Below are positions 1-6,015 of a DNA stretch of 6,015 nt, one piece after another. Source of the stretch: a virus (Duplodnaviria > Heunggongvirae > Uroviricota > Caudoviricetes); IMG/VR virus record IMGVR_UViG_3300015179_000022. One strand, written 5' to 3'. The stretch's first letter is position 1. Every line of letters starts with the position of its first letter. The notes beneath the pieces are model-generated. The model worked only from the letters and a program-made list of their open reading frames with translations, made no database searches and was not told the origin of the DNA. Position numbers and translations under genes: made by a program.

Positions 1-133
1 CACGGTCCAGCGAGATGTCTAGGTCAAAAATTTCACCGTCAAAGCGTTTTTTTTTTCTTTACTCTAAAGTTACCGTAACTTTATTCTCAAAATTGCGGAT
101 CCCTTTCACAATCAGTTCATAGTTTTGAGTCAT
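1..133 (-). pseudogene. ydfR-like small lysis-cassette protein (Qin YdfR / DUF1327-type), 5' part only; frame interrupted by in-frame TAA at 59..61 and gene runs off the window edge
   Basis: ATG at 131..133 sits 4 nt after the holin stop, with GGGGAGAG upstream. Translation MTQNYELIVKGIRNFENKVTVTLE, then TAA, then the same frame continues RKKKRFDGEIFDLDISLDR to position 2. The MTQ.YEL.VKG.RNFENKVTVT and RFDGEIFDLD motifs match my recollection of E. coli Qin YdfR. Confidence 0.5.
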
Positions 134-137
134 TGAA

Positions 138-353
138 TTACTCTCCCCGTGCAGCCTTACGCTTGTCTTCTTTAATCTTGAAATAAAGGTTTGTCAGGTA
201 CGTCAGCAGGCCAAATACCAGGCTACCCAGCACTCCAATTGCCGCCCACTGTGAGGGCGTGACTTTATCTAGCAGCTGTAAAAACCAGTACCCGGCACTA
301 CCTGCTGAGGTGCCATAGGCGACACCCGTTGTTAACTTATCCATGGATTTCAT
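138..353 (-). CDS. essD: Class II (S21-type) holin / pinholin, 71 aa
   Basis: Translation [71 protein letters not shown] matches the phage 21 S / EssD-EssQ holin family. Dual-start motif Met1-Lys-Ser-Met4; GAGGTGG Shine-Dalgarno upstream of ATG at 351..353. The ORF-track extension to 398 begins with TTG and was not used. Confidence 0.9.
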
Positions 354-480
354 AACCCCACCTCGCAGACAAAGCGGGTGTAAATTGAGGGAATACAACG
401 TATCGCAAAAAAGCAGAAACGTAACAGACTCGGAGTCAGTGAATAACTCAGGTATTGGGTTATCAGCTAATATCGAGACT

Positions 481-514
481 CAAAAAATGGAAAAACCCGC
501 TCGACGGCGGGTTT
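481..514 (-). terminator. Rho-independent terminator (minus strand) upstream of the holin
   Basis: Stem CCCGC(496..500)/GCGGG(507..511) with 6-nt loop; on the minus strand it is followed by TTTTTCCATTTTTTG (complement of the A-runs at 481..495). Confidence 0.55.
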
Positions 515-659
515 AAGCTGTGTGACGAAGTAACCACTCTTAACAGCATAACCAATTTTTTACGTACGTAAACCACTAAATGATATTTGCGAGAATGCTA
601 CCGAGTATTGAAAACACCACTACAAATACATAAGCAAATCTCAACAAATAACCAACAAA

Positions 660-942
660 TAATTTCCAGTGTTATTTTTAGCTGGTTTAAATTGAACCTT
701 CAAATTATAGAGCACTTATAAATAATAGCCGTTAATATAAATTGGCTAATAGATTTATTTTTATTCAGCCAAGAGCCATGAATAGGATTCGATAGAAAAA
801 AGTTCAGATAAAAATAGAGATCTACTTCACAAATCAAACGAGAAACCAAAACTTACATCTTGAAATAATCACATTGATTAGATGAATATTTATCGCGCAG
901 TGACATCATTTTTTAATAATAGTTCAAAAAAAAGGGCTCACG
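660..942 (+). promoter_or_regulatory. AT-rich upstream regulatory / promoter region of the porin gene
   Basis: Strongly AT-rich non-coding stretch directly upstream of the porin ATG at 943, with several -10-like hexamers (e.g. TTATAA around 716..721, with TTGAAC at 692..697). Exact promoter not resolved. Confidence 0.3.
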
Positions 943-2025
943 ATGAAAAAATTAACAGTGGCAATTTCTGCTGTAGCTGCATCAGTACTGATGGCGATGT
1001 CTGCTCAGGCAGCTGAAATTTATAATAAAGACAGTAACAAGCTGGATCTGTACGGGAAAGTTAATGCTAAGCACTACTTCTCCTCTAATGATGCAGATGA
1101 TGGTGATACTACTTATGCCCGTCTTGGCTTCAAAGGTGAAACCCAAATCAACGATCAACTGACTGGTTTCGGTCAGTGGGAATATGAATTCAAAGGCAAC
1201 CGCGCTGAATCTCAAGGTTCCTCCAAAGACAAAACCCGTCTTGCATTTGCAGGCCTGAAATTCGGTGACTACGGCTCAATCGATTACGGCCGTAACTACG
1301 GTGTAGCATACGACATCGGTGCGTGGACTGACGTTCTGCCAGAATTCGGTGGCGATACCTGGACCCAAACAGATGTGTTCATGACTGGTCGCACCACTGG
1401 TGTTGCAACCTATCGTAACAACGACTTCTTTGGTCTGGTCGATGGCCTGAACTTTGCTGCTCAGTATCAGGGTAAAAATGACCGCACTGACGTAACTGAA
1501 GCCAATGGTGATGGTTTCGGTTTCTCCACTACTTATGAGTATGAAGGATTCGGCGTGGGTGCAACCTATGCTAAATCAGATCGCACTGACGGTCAGGTCG
1601 CCTATGGTAAGAGCAAATTCAATGCCTCCGGCAAAAATGCGGAAGTATGGGCTGCAGGCCTGAAATATGATGCGAACAATATCTATCTGGCTACCACATA
1701 TTCTGAAACTCAGAATATGACCGTTTTTGGTAATAACCATATTGCAAACAAAGCACAAAACTTTGAAGCAGTAGCACAATATCAGTTTGACTTCGGTCTG
1801 CGACCATCTGTTGCTTACCTTCAGTCAAAAGGTAAAGACCTTGGTGTTCATGGTGACCGAGACTTAGTCAAGTATGTCGATGTCGGTGCTACTTACTACT
1901 TTAATAAAAACATGTCCACTTTTGTTGATTACAAAATCAACTTAATTGACGATAGTAAGTTTACCAAAACAGCTGGTATTGATACCGACGACATCGTCGC
2001 TGTAGGTCTGGTGTATCAGTTCTAA
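943..2025 (+). CDS. nmpC: Outer-membrane general porin of the OmpC/OmpF/PhoE family, prophage-encoded NmpC/Lc type, 360 aa, apparently intact
   Basis: N-terminus [46 protein letters not shown] (signal peptide plus porin start), internal porin motifs and C-terminal ...VAVGLVYQF with terminal Phe. Convergent with quuD. Confidence 0.93.
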
Positions 2026-2035
2026 TCTGATTACG

Positions 2036-2075
2036 AAAAAGATATGTTGCGGGAGGCTTTGCCTCCCCAACATAT
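2036..2075 (-). terminator. Rho-independent terminator (minus strand), candidate tR'-like late terminator downstream of quuD
   Basis: About 15-bp stem with a one-base bulge (2042..2057 pairing 2061..2075), 3-nt loop; on the minus strand followed by CTTTTTCG (complement of 2034..2041). Confidence 0.6.
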
Positions 2076-2076
2076 A

Positions 2077-2214
2077 AGTGGCTCCCTCAAGCCACTTCCT
2101 TTAGGAGCACAACCTTGCTTCTAACTATATAAACCTTCTGTTATATATTACCCTTTATTTTTGGGGGCGTCTCAACGCCCCATTTTTAATAATTTTTAGT
2201 AAACAATTGGCATA
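2077..2214 (-). promoter_or_regulatory. Candidate late promoter / Q-utilisation (pR'/qut-like) region directly downstream of quuD
   Basis: Position immediately 3' of the Q-family gene and 5' of a strong minus-strand terminator, as in lambdoid phages. A TTGAGA -35-like hexamer (complement of 2170..2175) lies about 17-19 bp from GTAATA/TAATAT. No exact promoter could be assigned. Confidence 0.25.
2163..2190 (+). terminator. Rho-independent terminator (plus strand) for the porin transcript
   Basis: Stem GGGGCG(2164..2169)/CGCCCC(2176..2181), loop TCTCAA, followed on the plus strand by ATTTTTAATAATTTTT. Confidence 0.55.
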
Positions 2215-2598
2215 TTAATTAGAGTTATTAACAACGATATCCATCTCTAACCGGATATCTAATGCCATTAACATCCCTTCAATTATGCCCTCAGCCTTCT
2301 GTAACCTTTTCCCGATATAACCATCAGAGCAGCAATGCTTACCTGCCAGTGACATGAATGTCATACCGACTACATAATAATCTACCAATAAATCATGCAA
2401 ATCGCTGTTGTTCTTTTTCAGACGGGCCATGCACCCGCAAATGATCATCGCGTCATCGTCACAACATTGTGGGCGAGATTTTACTTTTGAAGGAATTAAT
2501 CCCTTAAAACCGGCGGCAATGGACGACCAGGTCACATCTTCATGATTATTAGCCGCCCACGCTCCCCAACGCTCAAGAACCATCTGAATATCACGCAT
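2215..2598 (-). CDS. quuD: Late-gene antitermination protein Q (phage 82 / DLP12 QuuD-type), 127 aa
   Basis: Translation from ATG 2596..2598: [31 protein letters not shown]...[32 protein letters not shown]..., recognised as the DLP12 QuuD family. GGAG Shine-Dalgarno upstream. The ORF-track N-terminal extension begins with TTG and was not used. Confidence 0.88.
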
Positions 2599-2682
2599 CA
2601 ACTTACTCCACAAAATCAGACCAGAACGCCAATTACAAGCAAAAATCAACAAAACAGTATTAGTTGATTGTTATCTCTGACT

Positions 2683-2820
2683 TCATACTCCTGCTCCTGT
2701 CAGGGTTTTGGCGTAATTCTTCAGTATTCGGTAATCGGTCAAAACAGAACCGGGGAAACGATATAAGCGCAGACGCCCCCAGCGGTGGCGAAGACGTTCT
2801 GCCATATAAAACTCAAACAT
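2683..2820 (-). CDS. ylcG: Small nin-region protein YlcG (DUF3950-like), 45 aa
   Basis: ATG at 2818..2820 overlaps the rusA TGA stop (TGATG). Translation [45 protein letters not shown] matches recalled DLP12 YlcG. Too short for the ORF track. Confidence 0.72.
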   Translation of the reverse strand: MFEFYMAERLRHRWGRLRLYRFPGSVLTDYRILKNYAKTLTGAGV

Positions 2821-3182
2821 CATTCATTCCCCATTTCGGTGATGGTCAGTTCCAGCCTCCCACCTTTGGTAACAGGCATCTTCACAACGCGGTAATCAAC
2901 GACCTGAGCATCATCCAGCCAGAAACCTGCTTTAGTGAGTGCGTCAAAAGCGGCTTTTTGCAGATTATCCAGGTCACGGCGACGGCGATCCGGCATGTGG
3001 CACTCAATGCGGATTTTCACAGGCATAGCCAGGCCGATATCCAGCATTGCGTTTTTAATGATTCGGGCGACGTTATCGCGGTATGCCTGCCCCTCTGCGC
3101 TGACGTGCGTGCGCCCGCGATTATGGCGGTAATAGCGATTATTGCTCGGAGGCCAGGGTAATGTGATGCTGTAGGTATTCAC
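2820..3182 (-). CDS. rusA: Holliday-junction resolvase RusA, 120 aa
   Basis: Translation [37 protein letters not shown]...[31 protein letters not shown] recognised as RusA. GTG start at 3180..3182 overlaps the ybcO TGA stop (GTGA). Confidence 0.93.
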
Positions 3183-3469
3183 GCCTTAATAACCCCCTCT
3201 TTCAGCCAGATAACCTGTGTTCTCGCCATACCTTCCAGCGCGCATTCTTTTGCATATGCAGCATCGACAAAATGTGTGCGGCGGTCGATTTCGTCGTGGC
3301 AGGCAGAACATGCAATGGTGGCAATCAGGTCTGGCGGTTTGGTACCGGTGCCGCACAATCCAGTCAGCCGGATATGTGCCAGTACAGACGTTTCAGAGTT
3401 GCCATTACATACGCCAGGGATTCTTACCTGGCATTCCCGACCACGCGCTGCTTTTCTCAAATCAGCCAT
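3179..3469 (-). CDS. ybcO: YbcO (DUF1364) nin-region putative nuclease, 96 aa
   Basis: ATG at 3467..3469 preceded by AAGGAGGAA. Translation [37 protein letters not shown]...[23 protein letters not shown]. Start overlaps the 3' end of ninE (ATGGCTGA). The ORF-track extension to 3508 begins with TTG and was not used. Confidence 0.88.
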
Positions 3470-3632
3470 GATTCCTCCTTGCTGCCAGTCGCAACCATTT
3501 TTTATCAACCAGGCTGGCGGTATATCCGAGCAGTGTTGGTATTTCGGAAGGCTTCAGCTCCGGTTTACGCTTACGACGATCTGGTACTCTGTAGATGTGT
3601 CCGTTCATGACACGAATAAGCGGTGTAGCCAT
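3462..3632 (-). CDS. ninE: NinE-family protein, 56 aa
   Basis: ATG at 3630..3632 overlaps the natural ybcN stop TAA at 3632..3634 (TAATG). Translation [56 protein letters not shown] matches recalled NinE. Too short for the ORF track. Confidence 0.8.
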   Translation of the reverse strand: MATPLIRVMNGHIYRVPDRRKRKPELKPSEIPTLLGYTASLVDKKWLRLAARRNHG

Positions 3633-4087
3633 TACGCCTCCTGCTTGTCGCGCAGCAGCTGGAACTCGCAGCTCTGCGGAATAGTCAGGTGGCAGCCAAT
3701 ATTCATCGCCTAGGCTTCAACCTTACACAGGAAGACATACATCTCTCCGGCATCAAGATCGGAGGTATGGCGTAACGACTGGATAGTGGTGATTTCACCG
3801 GTTACGACATCAACCAGTTCTTTGGTTTCATAACCGAGGTATGTGTGTTTGAGAGCTTCTTTTACCCATGCTGCGGTAGCGAACGATTTCCCCCTGCTGA
3901 TAAGGTATTCACTGATTTCGCTGTACCACATGTGGCTGAGTGCATTCTGGGAAAGACTGCGTTTCTCACGCCACGGTTTAAGCACCATGCGAAAGCATTT
4001 TCCGTCCTCCAGATAAGGCTGGATCTGCTGGCCGATAGCGGTGAAGTTGCCGCGATGTAATTTGATGCCATCTTGTGGTAGGTTCAC
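3632..4087 (-). pseudogene. ybcN: ybcN (NinB-family recombination protein) with an in-frame amber codon at 3710..3712; translatable N-terminal fragment 3710..4087 is 125 aa
   Basis: GTG start at 4085..4087 with GGAGGTGA Shine-Dalgarno. 125 codons ([15 protein letters not shown]...LCKVEA) then TAG. The same frame continues AMNIGCHLTIPQSCEFQLLRDKQEA to a TAA overlapping the ninE ATG, giving 125+1+25 = 151 codons, the recalled YbcN length. The recalled family member has Trp (TGG) at the stop position. Confidence 0.8.
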
Positions 4088-4185
4088 GCTTCACCTCCGC
4101 AGAGGTCAAACGTTGGATGCAAAAAATCGCAGGTGCATTTCTGCATCTGTGAAGGGAGAAGAGAGTTTGAATTGTATGTGCGCAT
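4084..4185 (-). CDS. ylcH: Small protein YlcH, 33 aa
   Basis: ATG at 4183..4185. Translation [36 protein letters not shown] stop overlaps the ybcN GTG start (GTGA). Matches the recalled 33-aa DLP12 YlcH. Confidence 0.62.
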
Positions 4186-4281
4186 AAACGTCCCCGTTTA
4201 GCGCAGAAGTCACCGGAGTTGTTCAAGCTCCAATGGCATGATTATGGCTGGTTGATTATTGGAAATCAAATGTGCTGAAAA

Positions 4282-4791
4282 TTAGTCTGCCAAGTCTTCC
4301 TCAGTCGCAACTGGGTAATTCCAAATATCAAAAAAAGCTATAGCCTCCTGCCATTTGCTCCATAAGTTATCAAGTACTTGTGTAGGTTCCGTACTTTTAA
4401 AAACAGAATCAGCCGCATCACCGTTATGAACTTCCTCGTACAGTTCCATTATTAGCAGATTAACAAAGTACTGTTTCAACATTAATGCCTGATTACCTTC
4501 TTTCTGCTGGCTATCCTGCTTGATGATCTCCATCGCCCGTACTAGGCACCTGATGATATCCGCTGCATCATTAACGCTCCATTCAGATCCGCGCTTATCT
4601 TTAGCTGATGAATTGGCTCTCTCAGCGCAAGCCTTTAAAGACTCATAAAGGTAAACTCTATTTTGTAGCTGCAGCGCTTTTTTTGACGTGTACCAACTTG
4701 CAAGCGCCGACCCCGCTGCGGCTAATGTGCCAAACGCAGAAATGCCTGCTGCTATTGCACTTAAGTCGGCACTGTCAAAGTTCCACATCAT
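4282..4791 (-). CDS. Hypothetical protein, 169 aa: N-terminal Ala/Gly-rich hydrophobic segment (about residues 9-34, likely single transmembrane helix) followed by an acidic soluble domain; no family recognised
   Basis: Uninterrupted ORF with tandem ATGs at 4786..4791 preceded by AAGGTG. Hydrophobic stretch DLSAIAAGISAFGTLAAAGSALASWY followed by basic TSKKALQLQNR. Visibly more AT-rich than the flanking nin genes. Bounded upstream by its own terminator (4967..5006). Confidence 0.7.
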   Translation of the reverse strand: MMWNFDSADLSAIAAGISAFGTLAAAGSALASWYTSKKALQLQNRVYLYESLKACAERANSSAKDKRGSEWSVNDAADIIRCLVRAMEIIKQDSQQKEGNQALMLKQYFVNLLIMELYEEVHNGDAADSVFKSTEPTQVLDNLWSKWQEAIAFFDIWNYPVATEEDLAD

Positions 4792-4966
4792 CGTTACACC
4801 TTATATAAACACCCCTCAGTAATATCCAATAAGGTATGTGAACAATCAATATAATTTATATCCGTATCGGCACATAGCGATTTTAATGCTACTGATAATG
4901 GTATCTTTTAGATTATATCGTCCAGTTCCAGTACCCGTATTTTAGGAATGGACTCGCACATTACCC

Positions 4967-5006
4967 CAAAAAATGCCAGCACTTCCGTCATCGCAGAATG
5001 CTGGCA
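4967..5006 (-). terminator. Rho-independent terminator (minus strand) downstream of the Roi-like gene
   Basis: 8-bp stem TGCCAGCA(4974..4981)/TGCTGGCA(4999..5006); on the minus strand followed by TTTTTTGGGG (complement of 4965..4973). Confidence 0.5.
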
Positions 5007-5025
5007 GTATTTCTAACTAGTGACT

Positions 5026-5634
5026 TTATTGCAACAGATTCTGACGGAAATATGGTAACACTCGACTCCACTTATCATCCTGCCACGGTTGGAATTTTAC
5101 ATGCGCCGTTTCTCTGGCAAGGATTTCTCGCGCCCTGTTGAGTATCCGAGGATATTCTTGTTCGATTGAAGTGAATCTACCTGCTTCGCGATGCTCTGCG
5201 ACCTGAAGAAGGGGCGTAACGTTCTGGCAGGCGGTTAACATCGTATCACTTGCTCGCCATAACCAGGCGAGTGTGCAAAGTTCGTTATCAGTGAATTGTT
5301 TTGTGATTGGGGATTGTTGAACTTCTCGATCGAGAATATCCAGAACCCAGCGGCGGAATTCTTTGGCCACAGGAGTACGAGCAAACATGGCGATCAAATG
5401 GGCTCCGCGAAGGCTAAATACTCGAGACTCCTGCATTCCACGAGGGGTGGTCACTTTGACCACCCTTGTCATCATATCTGTGAATTCATCTGAGTGCCGA
5501 GAGTAAATGCGCTGAACTGCTTTATCGTCCGCATATTCCAGTGCTAAACCAACTTCAGTGGCAGTAAGCCAAATTCTGTTATTGTGGCAAATCGGGGTAA
5601 ACGTCGTTTTGTGGAATGCTAATTGAGTAGTCAT
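5026..5634 (-). CDS. Bro-N domain DNA-binding protein, Roi/antirepressor-like, 202 aa
   Basis: ATG at 5632..5634 with GAGGTGA Shine-Dalgarno. N-terminal half (FHKTTFTPICHNNRIWLTATEVGLALEYADDKAVQRIYSRHSDEFT...FRRWVLDILDREV) fits the Bro-N pattern and resembles Roi-type proteins found in lambdoid nin regions. C-terminal half not recognised. Confidence 0.75.
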   Translation of the reverse strand: MTTQLAFHKTTFTPICHNNRIWLTATEVGLALEYADDKAVQRIYSRHSDEFTDMMTRVVKVTTPRGMQESRVFSLRGAHLIAMFARTPVAKEFRRWVLDILDREVQQSPITKQFTDNELCTLAWLWRASDTMLTACQNVTPLLQVAEHREAGRFTSIEQEYPRILNRAREILARETAHVKFQPWQDDKWSRVLPYFRQNLLQ

Positions 5635-5658
5635 AGTATCACCTCATCAGGTTAACCA

Positions 5659-5691
5659 TCACCACCAACGACGCCAATCGACTGGTGGTGA
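5659..5691. repeat. Perfect 9-bp inverted repeat TCACCACCA / TGGTGGTGA with 15-bp spacer, in the leader of the Roi-like gene
   Basis: Arms at 5659..5667 and 5683..5691, read directly from the sequence; located about 25-60 nt upstream of the Roi-like start on the transcribed strand. Confidence 0.5.
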
Positions 5692-5790
5692 ACTGTGTAA
5701 GGTTGGCGTAACCGGCTACTCAAACCCGGCGCTTCCGAAGAAGCCCTCACACAGCCCACCATAATTTGGGCATAGCCGTGCTTAGCGCAC

Positions 5791-5811
5791 AAAAAAACCG
5801 CTTAACGCGGT
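5791..5811 (-). terminator. Rho-independent terminator (minus strand), possibly tR2-like early-operon terminator
   Basis: Stem ACCGC/GCGGT (5797..5801 / 5807..5811), loop TTAAC; on the minus strand followed by a run of 7 T (complement of 5791..5797). Confidence 0.5.
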
Positions 5812-5896
5812 ATGCGTTGAGTAGTATCCCGGGACGCCAATCCCGTGTGCCGATTTTGCGGCAACGCACAGAATATAGCGCCGGATAAATCTTGTC

Positions 5897-6015
5897 GGTG
5901 ATGCTGCCAACTTACTGATTTAGTGTATGATGGTGTTTTTGAGGTGCTCCAGTGGCTTCTGTTTCTATCAGCTGTCCCTCCTGTTCAGCTACTGACGGGG
6001 TGGTGCGTAACGGCA
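5897..6015 (+). mobile_element. IS1 insertion sequence, left end (terminal inverted repeat plus start of insA), continues beyond the window
   Basis: 5897 onward reads GGTGATGCTGCCAACTTACTGATTTAGTGTATGATGGTGTTTTTGAGGTGCTCCAGTGGCTTCTGTTTCTATCAGCTGTCCC..., the canonical IS1 terminus and insA leader as I recall them. Confidence 0.92.
5952..6015 (+). CDS. insA: IS1 InsA (transposition inhibitor / N-terminal part of InsAB' transposase), 5' fragment only
   Basis: GTG at 5952..5954 (IS1 position 56) followed by codons for ASVSISCPSCSATDGVVRNG, the InsA N-terminus with its zinc-finger cysteines. Truncated by the window edge. Confidence 0.85.
   Translation, partial: MASVSISCPSCSATDGVVRNG

What the first reader, a model, noticed from the sequence alone, without database searches (positions are those of the whole stretch)
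3632..4087. ybcN (NinB-family) carries an in-frame amber codon, yet the downstream frame and its coupling to ninE are intact
The ORF stops at TAG (3710..3712) after 125 codons. The same frame then continues for 25 codons to a TAA that overlaps the ninE ATG, the usual coupled arrangement. The recalled full-length protein is 151 aa with Trp at this position, so a single TGG-to-TAG transition is the simplest explanation. It is either a very recent inactivation or a gene expressed in full only under amber suppression; it may also reduce coupled initiation of ninE.
Basis: partly seen in the sequence, partly recalled or inferred. Interest (0 to 1): 0.5.

Follow-up and report, generated by a model that had tools for sequence, protein, structure and literature searches.

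The report
Nonsense-mutated ybcN pseudogene in decaying prophage
One base change, at a position prone to mutation, has put a stop codon into a phage recombination gene inside a decaying prophage of one E. coli lineage; this is ordinary gene decay, already flagged as a pseudogene in public annotations.

Summary
On the minus strand, ybcN starts at GTG 4087 and stops at TAG 3712..3710 after 125 codons. The frame then runs 25 more codons to TAA 3634..3632, which overlaps the ninE ATG (TAATG).

Over 481 nt the locus differs from the intact allele of E. coli 042 and WCHEC020031 by one base, TGG to TAG at Trp126. The changed base is the inner C of an ancestral Dcm site (+ strand CCAGG to CTAGG), the classic 5-methylcytosine deamination signature.

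YbcN proteins are 151 aa from Escherichia to Pantoea, and Trp126 and the tail are conserved. The amber allele is real but rare: 2 of 2932 complete E. coli genomes that carry ybcN, where NCBI's genome annotation pipeline (PGAP) marks it as a pseudogene with an internal stop. It also occurs on 54 short contigs, including human-gut metagenomes. No TAG version was found on diverged backgrounds.

The two complete carrier genomes have none of the five classic one-step amber suppressor tRNAs. The element is a defective lambdoid prophage at att-lambda, riddled with IS1 and IS100.

Best reading: a lineage-fixed nonsense pseudogene. Loss of the conserved C-terminal part is shown; a polar drop in ninE translation is only predicted. 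Ordinary and already known; low interest.

The parts
3710..4087 (-). Translated 5' part of ybcN: GTG start at 4087, 125 sense codons, premature TAG.
   Evidence: NF007281/PRK09741 scores 219 bits and covers profile positions 1-125 of 151. PGAP places the gene start at the same GTG in relatives.
3710..3712 (-). Amber codon TAG replacing Trp126 (TGG).
   Evidence: It is the only difference over 481 nt from the E. coli 042 and WCHEC020031 alleles. W126 is at least 90% conserved in the family.
3710..3714 (+). Mutated Dcm site. The window reads CTAGG where intact alleles read CCAGG; the changed base, 3711, is the inner C that Dcm methylates.
   Evidence: Sequence. The CCTGG context on the coding strand is kept in nearly all 64 sequence variants. 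Dcm specificity and the 5-methylcytosine hotspot are established knowledge (Coulondre et al. 1978), recalled rather than looked up.
3632..3709 (-). Untranslated remnant of the ybcN 3' end: 25 codons plus the original TAA at 3634..3632.
   Evidence: It is 100% identical to intact alleles. It would encode conserved residues A127, G131, C132, L134, P137, L145 and Q149, and the end of helix 113-129 plus helix 141-150 of the model.
3637..3642 (-). ninE Shine-Dalgarno sequence AGGAGG, 4 nt upstream of the ATG.
   Evidence: It is invariant in nearly all homologous junctions.
3688..3692 (-). CCACC within ybcN codons 132-134, predicted to pair with the ninE Shine-Dalgarno sequence.
   Evidence: In the fold prediction (MFE -44.4 kcal/mol, z -2.16), four of the five Shine-Dalgarno bases pair here with probability about 1.0. 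The same pairing is predicted in most of 63 variant junctions. There is no covariation proof.
3462..3632 (-). ninE (56 aa), intact; its ATG overlaps the original ybcN stop codon.
   Evidence: NF007245 scores 140 bits. PGAP calls it an intact CDS in relatives.
4084..4185 (-). A 33-codon upstream ORF (recalled as resembling K-12 ylcH; not tested) whose TGA overlaps the ybcN GTG (GTGA).
   Evidence: It is annotated as a hypothetical protein in relatives. It has no NCBIfam match.
2820..3508 (-). Downstream nin genes ybcO (3179-3469) and rusA (2820-3182), each overlapping the gene before it.
   Evidence: Pfam YbcO and RusA matches. PGAP coordinates in the relatives.

Best explanation
This ybcN copy is a pseudogene, made by one C-to-T transition on the + strand at position 3711 (TGG to TAG, Trp126 to amber). 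It sits in a defective, IS-riddled lambdoid prophage at the att-lambda site of one E. coli lineage.

The mutated base is the methylated inner cytosine of an ancestral Dcm site (CCAGG). The most likely origin is therefore spontaneous deamination of 5-methylcytosine that escaped very-short-patch repair (inferred).

Translation now ends at codon 125. That removes the last turn of helix 113-129, a conserved loop, and the C-terminal helix of a NinB/Orf-type recombination mediator (shown). The product is expected to be impaired or unstable (inferred).

Ribosomes no longer cross the last 75 nt. Those bases hold the partner of a predicted hairpin that covers the ninE ribosome-binding site, so ninE translation is probably lowered (predicted, not measured).

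The prophage lacks its early region, and the host lineage carries other internal-stop and IS1-disrupted genes. The loss is probably neutral decay.
For: - **The change itself.** One base differs over 481 nt from intact alleles. The exact Trp126 ancestor protein is on at least 1000 contigs; the 125-aa form is on 54.
- **Family norm.** Length is 151 aa in nearly all listed homologues down to 62% identity. W126, A127, G131, C132, L134, P137, L145 and Q149 are at least 90% conserved.
- **Rarity.** The exact 71-mer with TAG occurs in 2 of 2932 genomes that match the 71-mer. A degenerate pattern with TAG gave 0 hits in viral, metagenome and species-representative genome collections, against at least 120 with TGG in viral contigs.
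- **Existing annotation.** PGAP marks 'YbcN family protein, internal stop'.
- **No suppressor in the complete carrier genomes**.
- **Defective prophage.** The order is int-xis, then IS1, then the nin genes. There is no immunity or replication region. Three IS1 copies, one IS100, and truncated head and tail genes are present.
- **Other decay in the same genome.** chiP and a fimH-like gene have internal stops, and other genes are split by IS1.
- **Structure.** The AF2 model has pLDDT 87 with helices 113-129 and 141-150. Its top PDB match is lambda NinB/Orf 1pc6, probability 0.99. The C-terminal helix of lambda Orf contributes to DNA binding (PMC4118853).
- **ninE.** The Shine-Dalgarno sequence is predicted to be sequestered.
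Against: - No expression or protein data exist, so a 125-aa product with residual ssDNA or SSB binding is not excluded. The RAGNYA core and central-channel residues lie upstream of the stop.
- The Dcm-deamination origin is inferred from sequence context alone.
- The window's own host genome was not available for a suppressor scan.
- The hairpin has only a modest z-score (-2.16). It lacks covariation support because the Shine-Dalgarno side is invariant.
- With 75 nt and about 0.15% divergence among carriers, the lack of further decay downstream says nothing about selection either way.
Confidence: 0.9

Rival explanations
1. The gene is still expressed in full through amber suppression or efficient natural readthrough of the TAG, giving conditional or low-level YbcN.
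For: The downstream frame and the overlap with ninE are untouched. Amber suppressors exist in some E. coli: supE44 is in 155 records, those listed being laboratory strains, and a serU-CTA allele is in DSM 498.
Against: Both complete genomes with the allele have CTG anticodons in glnV and glnX. Neither is among the records with supD. No supF, full-length supP or su7 type gene exists in any of the 5426 genomes. The intact downstream frame is expected simply from the youth of the mutation. The TAG is not kept on any diverged background.
Confidence: 0.03
2. The TAG is a sequencing or assembly error, and the gene is intact in the organism.
For: It is a single-base difference. The same window has a suspicious cluster of six changes to T at 53-63 that no relative shares, so local errors in this sequence are conceivable.
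Against: The identical ybcN*-ninE block occurs in two complete genomes and seven other contigs from different projects and technologies. The 125-aa product is recorded on 54 contigs. One human-gut metagenome contig is 100% identical to window 292-6015.
Confidence: 0.02
3. The truncated 125-aa YbcN is a functional, selected variant (a shortened or dominant-negative Orf-like protein) rather than a dead gene.
For: The allele persists in a lineage found in several human-gut samples. The 125 residues still score far above the family cutoff. They contain the conserved core, including the QN motif and Trp54 region.
Against: The lost 26 residues are conserved across genera. No other lineage carries this truncation. 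The element is a defective prophage in a genome with many other pseudogenes. Persistence is expected for a neutral lesion that hitch-hikes in a clone.
Confidence: 0.05

Closest known systems
YbcN of E. coli K-12 cryptic prophage DLP12 / orf151 of phage 82 (NCBIfam NF007281, PRK09741)
   Same: The family and gene order match: a small upstream ORF (recalled as ylcH-like), ybcN, ninE, ybcO, rusA, ylcG, quuD, then an oppositely oriented porin. The closest cluster representative is about 92% identical. The restored protein is an exact match to a very common E. coli YbcN, named 'DNA base-flipping protein YbcN'.
   Different: Codon 126 is TAG instead of TGG, so only 125 of 151 residues are made. The prophage sits next to ybhC (att-lambda), not at argU. 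Its porin gene is uninterrupted.
Lambda Orf (NinB), recombination mediator, PDB 1PC6, Pfam PF05772
   Same: It holds the same position in the nin region, upstream of a Holliday-junction resolvase (PMC4118853). It is the top fold match. It falls under the PHROG 72 NinB/Orf label. DLP12 YbcN binds ssDNA and SSB as Orf does (PMC4118853).
   Different: Only about 16% identity is reported. The restored protein scores 22.5 bits, just below the Pfam gathering cutoff of 23.8, and the truncated one gives no Pfam hit. The TM-score is only 0.44-0.53.
5-methylcytosine (Dcm, CCWGG) deamination hotspots that give amber mutations, as in lacI (Coulondre, Miller, Farabaugh and Gilbert 1978; recalled, not looked up)
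   Same: The same chemistry and context apply. On the + strand, CCAGG becomes CTAGG at the inner C, creating a TAG on one strand.
   Different: Here the amber arises on the complementary strand from a Trp codon (TGG to TAG), not from CAG. Whether the host has active Dcm was not tested. No recurrence was seen elsewhere.

Membership tests
YbcN family (NCBIfam NF007281 / PRK09741) | Score above the curated cutoff of the family HMM. | tested here: met
   219.4 bits against a cutoff of 164 for the 125-aa product; 276.4 bits for the Trp126 form.
YbcN family (NCBIfam NF007281 / PRK09741) | Full-length coverage of the 151-position profile, and the 151-aa length typical of members. | tested here: not met
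   The product covers profile positions 1-125 of 151. Homologues are almost all 151 aa. The remaining 26 positions are encoded in frame behind the TAG, so this is a family member as a pseudogene.
YbcN family (NCBIfam NF007281 / PRK09741) | Position in the nin region just upstream of ninE, ybcO and rusA. | tested here: met
   and the annotation of the relatives.
NinB/Orf (Pfam PF05772; lambda Orf fold) | Pfam gathering score reached. | tested here: not met
   The restored 151-aa protein scores 22.5 bits against 23.8; the truncated protein has no hit. Some homologues carry a precomputed PF05772 hit.
NinB/Orf (Pfam PF05772; lambda Orf fold) | Orf-like fold. | tested here: inconclusive
   For the model of the full-length cluster representative (pLDDT 87), the best PDB matches are 1pc6_B and 1pc6_A with probability 0.99. 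However, the E-values are 6e-3 and 2e-2 and the TM-scores 0.44-0.53. PHROG 72 'NinB/Orf' matches at E 3.7e-39. Published Phyre2 modelling and biochemistry support the relationship (PMC4118853).
Nonsense pseudogene | The stop lies at a position that is a conserved sense codon in homologues, and the downstream frame is still homologous. | tested here: met
Nonsense pseudogene | No cognate suppressor tRNA in the host. | tested here: inconclusive
   This holds for the two complete genomes that carry the allele, across five classic one-step amber suppressor classes. The host genome of the window itself is not available.
Programmed stop-codon readthrough / recoding | The in-frame stop is conserved across diverged homologues. 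| tested here: not met
   The TAG pattern gave 0 hits in viral, metagenome and species-representative genome collections. The TGG pattern gave at least 120 in viral contigs.
Dcm 5-methylcytosine deamination hotspot | The mutated base is the inner C of CCWGG in the ancestor, and the change is C to T. | tested here: met
   The + strand at 3710-3714 reads CCAGG in intact alleles and CTAGG here.
Dcm 5-methylcytosine deamination hotspot | The host has active Dcm methylation at this site. | not tested
   dcm was not looked for in the carrier genomes. Methylation status cannot be read from the sequence.

The most novel reading that the evidence does not exclude
The conserved pairing between ybcN codons 132-134 (CCACC) and the ninE Shine-Dalgarno sequence could be a genuine coupling device that makes ninE translation depend on ribosomes finishing ybcN. 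In that case this natural amber allele would be a ready-made polar mutant that also silences ninE. Alternatively, YbcN(1-125) could persist as a dominant-negative partner of intact Orf-family proteins from co-resident or infecting lambdoid phages.
Probability: 0.1. Interest if true: 0.3.

Novelty: already known. Interest (0 to 1): 0.08.

Why it matters
It matters little beyond correct annotation. The locus should be labelled a ybcN pseudogene with an internal stop, as RefSeq already does for the same allele. It should not be labelled a 125-aa gene or a recoding candidate.

It is a clean textbook case of a nonsense mutation at a Dcm-methylated cytosine in a decaying prophage. The allele could serve as a lineage marker. 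It could also serve as a natural control for studying translational coupling in the nin operon.

Tried and rejected
- **Sequencing error.** Rejected, because the allele recurs in independent assemblies.
- **A naturally shorter homologue.** Rejected. The family is 151 aa, and the shorter cluster representatives examined look like partial sequences or carry internal deletions.
- **Recurrence of the hotspot mutation, or a conserved stop.** Three collection scans with a degenerate TAG pattern found nothing.
- **Amber suppressors.** supE44 served as a positive control and was found in 155 records, those listed being laboratory strains. The carriers have wild-type glnV/glnX. No record holds supF (tyrT-type sequence), full-length supP or su7. 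supD occurs only in DSM 498. A suppressor in tyrU, or an unusual suppressor, would have been missed.
- **Sequence search of PDB with the restored protein.** It did not find 1pc6; only the fold search did.
- **Covariation support for the ninE hairpin.** Not obtainable, because the Shine-Dalgarno side is invariant.
- **A second ybcN copy in JCC-EE 7.** I looked at the argU/DLP12 site, and no prophage is there. The second matching place reported was not located.
- **Source genome.** The window's exact source is not among the complete E. coli genomes. The best full-length match is 98%. The closest relatives lack window 4794-5894.

Full report
**Observation**

The window is the nin-to-lysis segment of a lambdoid prophage. 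On the minus strand it holds:
- a Bro-N/P22AR gene (5026-5634);
- a 169-aa PHROG 1779 gene (4282-4791);
- a 33-codon ORF (4084-4185);
- ybcN, then ninE (3462-3632), ybcO (3179-3469), rusA (2820-3182), ylcG, and a Q antiterminator (2215-2652).

On the plus strand there is an OmpC/NmpC-type porin gene (943-2025). An IS1 end lies at 5895-6015.

The ybcN frame starts at GTG 4087, behind GGAGG at 4098-4094. It reads 125 sense codons and meets TAG at 3712..3710. It then stays open for 25 codons to TAA 3634..3632, which overlaps the ninE ATG 3632..3630 as TAATG.

**What the stop is**

Over 481 nt, the locus was aligned with the alleles of E. coli 042 and WCHEC020031. Exactly one column differs: TGG in those strains and TAG here.

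The protein with Trp at 126 and the other 150 residues unchanged is a very common E. coli protein, on at least 1000 contigs and named DNA base-flipping protein YbcN. The 125-aa form is recorded on 54 contigs.

Among 382 homologues, nearly all of the 120 listed are 151 aa, from Escherichia and Salmonella to Cronobacter and Pantoea at 62% identity. In an alignment of 50, residues W126, A127, G131, C132, L134, P137, L145 and Q149 are at least 90% conserved.

The product matches positions 1-125 of the 151-position NCBIfam profile NF007281/PRK09741. It scores 219 bits against a cutoff of 164. So this is a member of the YbcN family that has lost its last 26 residues to a nonsense mutation. It is not a naturally shorter homologue.

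**Is it real, and how common is it**

A 71-mer centred on the TAG is exact in 2 of the 2932 complete E. coli genomes that match it: JCC-EE 7 and FELIX_MS533. All but one of the others fall in the 95-99% identity band, and every intact allele listed differs by a single base. PGAP annotates both carrier loci as 'YbcN family protein, pseudogene, internal stop'.

An exact look-up of the 125-aa product found it in 109 blocks of public assemblies. These include NCBI draft genomes and human-gut metagenome assemblies from several projects, always on short contigs with the same neighbouring genes. All nine fetched loci carry an identical 656-nt ybcN*-ninE block. One metagenome contig is 100% identical to window 292-6015. 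A sequencing error is therefore very unlikely.

A degenerate pattern that tolerates synonymous and family-level variation around codon 126 gave these counts:
- 0 hits with TAG in IMG/VR viral contigs;
- 0 hits with TAG in JGI metagenomes;
- 0 hits with TAG in the GTDB species-representative genomes;

The stop is thus confined to one lineage. It is neither recurrent nor conserved, which argues against programmed readthrough.

**Origin of the mutation (inference)**

In intact alleles the + strand at 3710-3714 reads CCAGG, a Dcm site. The window reads CTAGG. The changed base, 3711, is the inner cytosine, the one Dcm methylates. Deamination of 5-methylcytosine to thymine at such sites is the classic base-substitution hotspot of E. 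coli (Coulondre et al. 1978; my recollection, not looked up). This is the most economical origin. Whether the host methylates this site was not tested.

**Context: a decaying element in a decaying genome**

In the complete relatives the prophage lies between ybhC and ybhB/bioA, the att-lambda region. It runs from int and xis to an IS1, and then straight to the nin genes, so the recombination, immunity and replication region is missing. Further along there are an IS100, two more IS1 copies, a truncated head-decoration gene and tail-fibre fragments.

The same genome has other internal-stop pseudogenes, chiP and a fimH-like adhesin, and several genes split by IS1. A nonsense mutation in a recombination accessory gene of such a remnant is what neutral decay predicts.

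**Consequences for the protein**

An AlphaFold2 model of the full-length cluster representative (pLDDT 87) has helices at 113-129 and 141-150. Its best PDB matches are the two chains of lambda NinB/Orf, 1pc6, at probability 0.99 and TM-score 0.44-0.53.

The stop removes the end of the first helix, the conserved G131-C132-x-L134-x-x-P137 loop, and the last helix.

In lambda Orf the C-terminal helix contributes to DNA binding: W137A and earlier C-terminal mutants bind DNA less well. DLP12 YbcN is an ssDNA- and SSB-binding relative of Orf that is already poorly soluble without a fusion partner (PMC4118853).

I infer an impaired or unstable product. This was not measured.

**Consequences for ninE**

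ninE has its own AGGAGG at 3642-3637, four bases before the ATG, so it does not depend on reinitiation alone.

In the predicted fold of the 120 nt from the TAG into ninE, four of the five bases of GGAGG pair with CCACC at 3692-3688, which is ybcN codons 132-134 (MFE -44.4 kcal/mol, z -2.16). The pairing probability for those bases is about 1.0. The same pairing is predicted in most of 63 distinct homologous junctions.

In intact alleles, ribosomes finishing ybcN would melt this stem. Here they stop about 20 nt upstream of it. A drop in ninE translation is therefore plausible.

The Shine-Dalgarno side never varies, so there is no covariation evidence. The z-score is also modest. This remains a prediction.

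**Amber suppression**

As a positive control, a glnV query carrying the supE44 anticodon found 155 records; the 60 listed look like laboratory strains, mostly K-12 derivatives.

| Suppressor type | Gene and anticodon tested | Result |
|---|---|---|
| supE | glnV/glnX CTA | both carrier genomes have wild-type CTG |
| supF | tyrT CTA | no record |
| supD | serU CTA | only DSM 498 |
| supP | leuX CTA | no full-length match |
| su7 | trpT CTA | no record |

So the two complete carrier genomes have none of the five classic one-step amber suppressors. The window's own host could not be examined.

**Comparison with the known, and verdict**

The gene works like, and belongs to, the YbcN branch of the Orf/NinB recombination-mediator family. 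It is a nonsense pseudogene of that family. The same allele is already flagged as such in RefSeq.

Nothing about the mechanism is new. The Dcm context and the possible polar effect on ninE are tidy details.

Interest is low, at about 0.08. The most novel reading not excluded is a real coupling hairpin that makes this allele a natural polar mutant, or a dominant-negative truncated Orf. I give that about 10% probability, and modest interest if true.

Noticed in passing
window 53-63 (+), inside the minus-strand ydfR/DUF1327-family gene that starts at 133: Six substitutions, all to T, fall within 11 bases relative to the seven related loci that reach this stretch. They extend a T6 run to T10 and turn LALRDKK into LE*RKKK, creating a TAA at codon 25. 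This could be a local sequencing or assembly smear, or a clustered mutation.
   Followed up: partly
window 3637-3692 (-): The ninE Shine-Dalgarno sequence is predicted to pair with CCACC in ybcN codons 132-134. The same pairing is predicted in most of 63 variant ybcN-ninE junctions from viral contigs. It may be a coupling hairpin, but there is no covariation evidence.
   Followed up: partly
window 4794-6015; L001 3543-4297: The window keeps a Bro-N/P22AR gene (5026-5634) between the 169-aa gene and an IS1 end (5895-6015). In the two complete relatives this 1.1 kb is absent and IS1 abuts window position 4793. That points to an IS1-associated deletion or a different insertion history.
   Followed up: partly
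window 2820-4185 (-): There is a chain of overlapping start and stop codons: the 33-codon ORF with ybcN (GTGA), ybcN with ninE (TAATG), ninE with ybcO (8-nt overlap), and ybcO with rusA (4-nt overlap). This suggests serial translational coupling through the nin genes.
   Followed up: no
window 943-2025 (+): An intact 360-aa OmpC/NmpC-type porin gene lies between the Q antiterminator and the lysis genes, on the opposite strand. As I recall, the K-12 DLP12 nmpC copy is interrupted by IS5.
   Followed up: no
L132 13480-14886; L135 2547-5462 and 28723-30729 (NZ_CP101922.1): The carrier genome JCC-EE 7 has other internal-stop pseudogenes (chiP and a fimH-like adhesin) and several IS1-split genes. 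It has no prophage at argU. The picture is of an IS1-rich lineage that is accumulating pseudogenes.
   Followed up: no
NZ_CP193717.1 2931840-2931929 (E. coli DSM 498): This is the only complete genome of 5426 with an exact match to serU carrying a CTA anticodon, a supD-type amber suppressor. The stretch has no annotated feature under it.
   Followed up: no
NZ_CP101922.1 and NZ_CP137696.1: Each record has a second place that matches the ybcN query. It is not at the argU/DLP12 site. I did not locate it, so an intact paralogue may exist.
   Followed up: no
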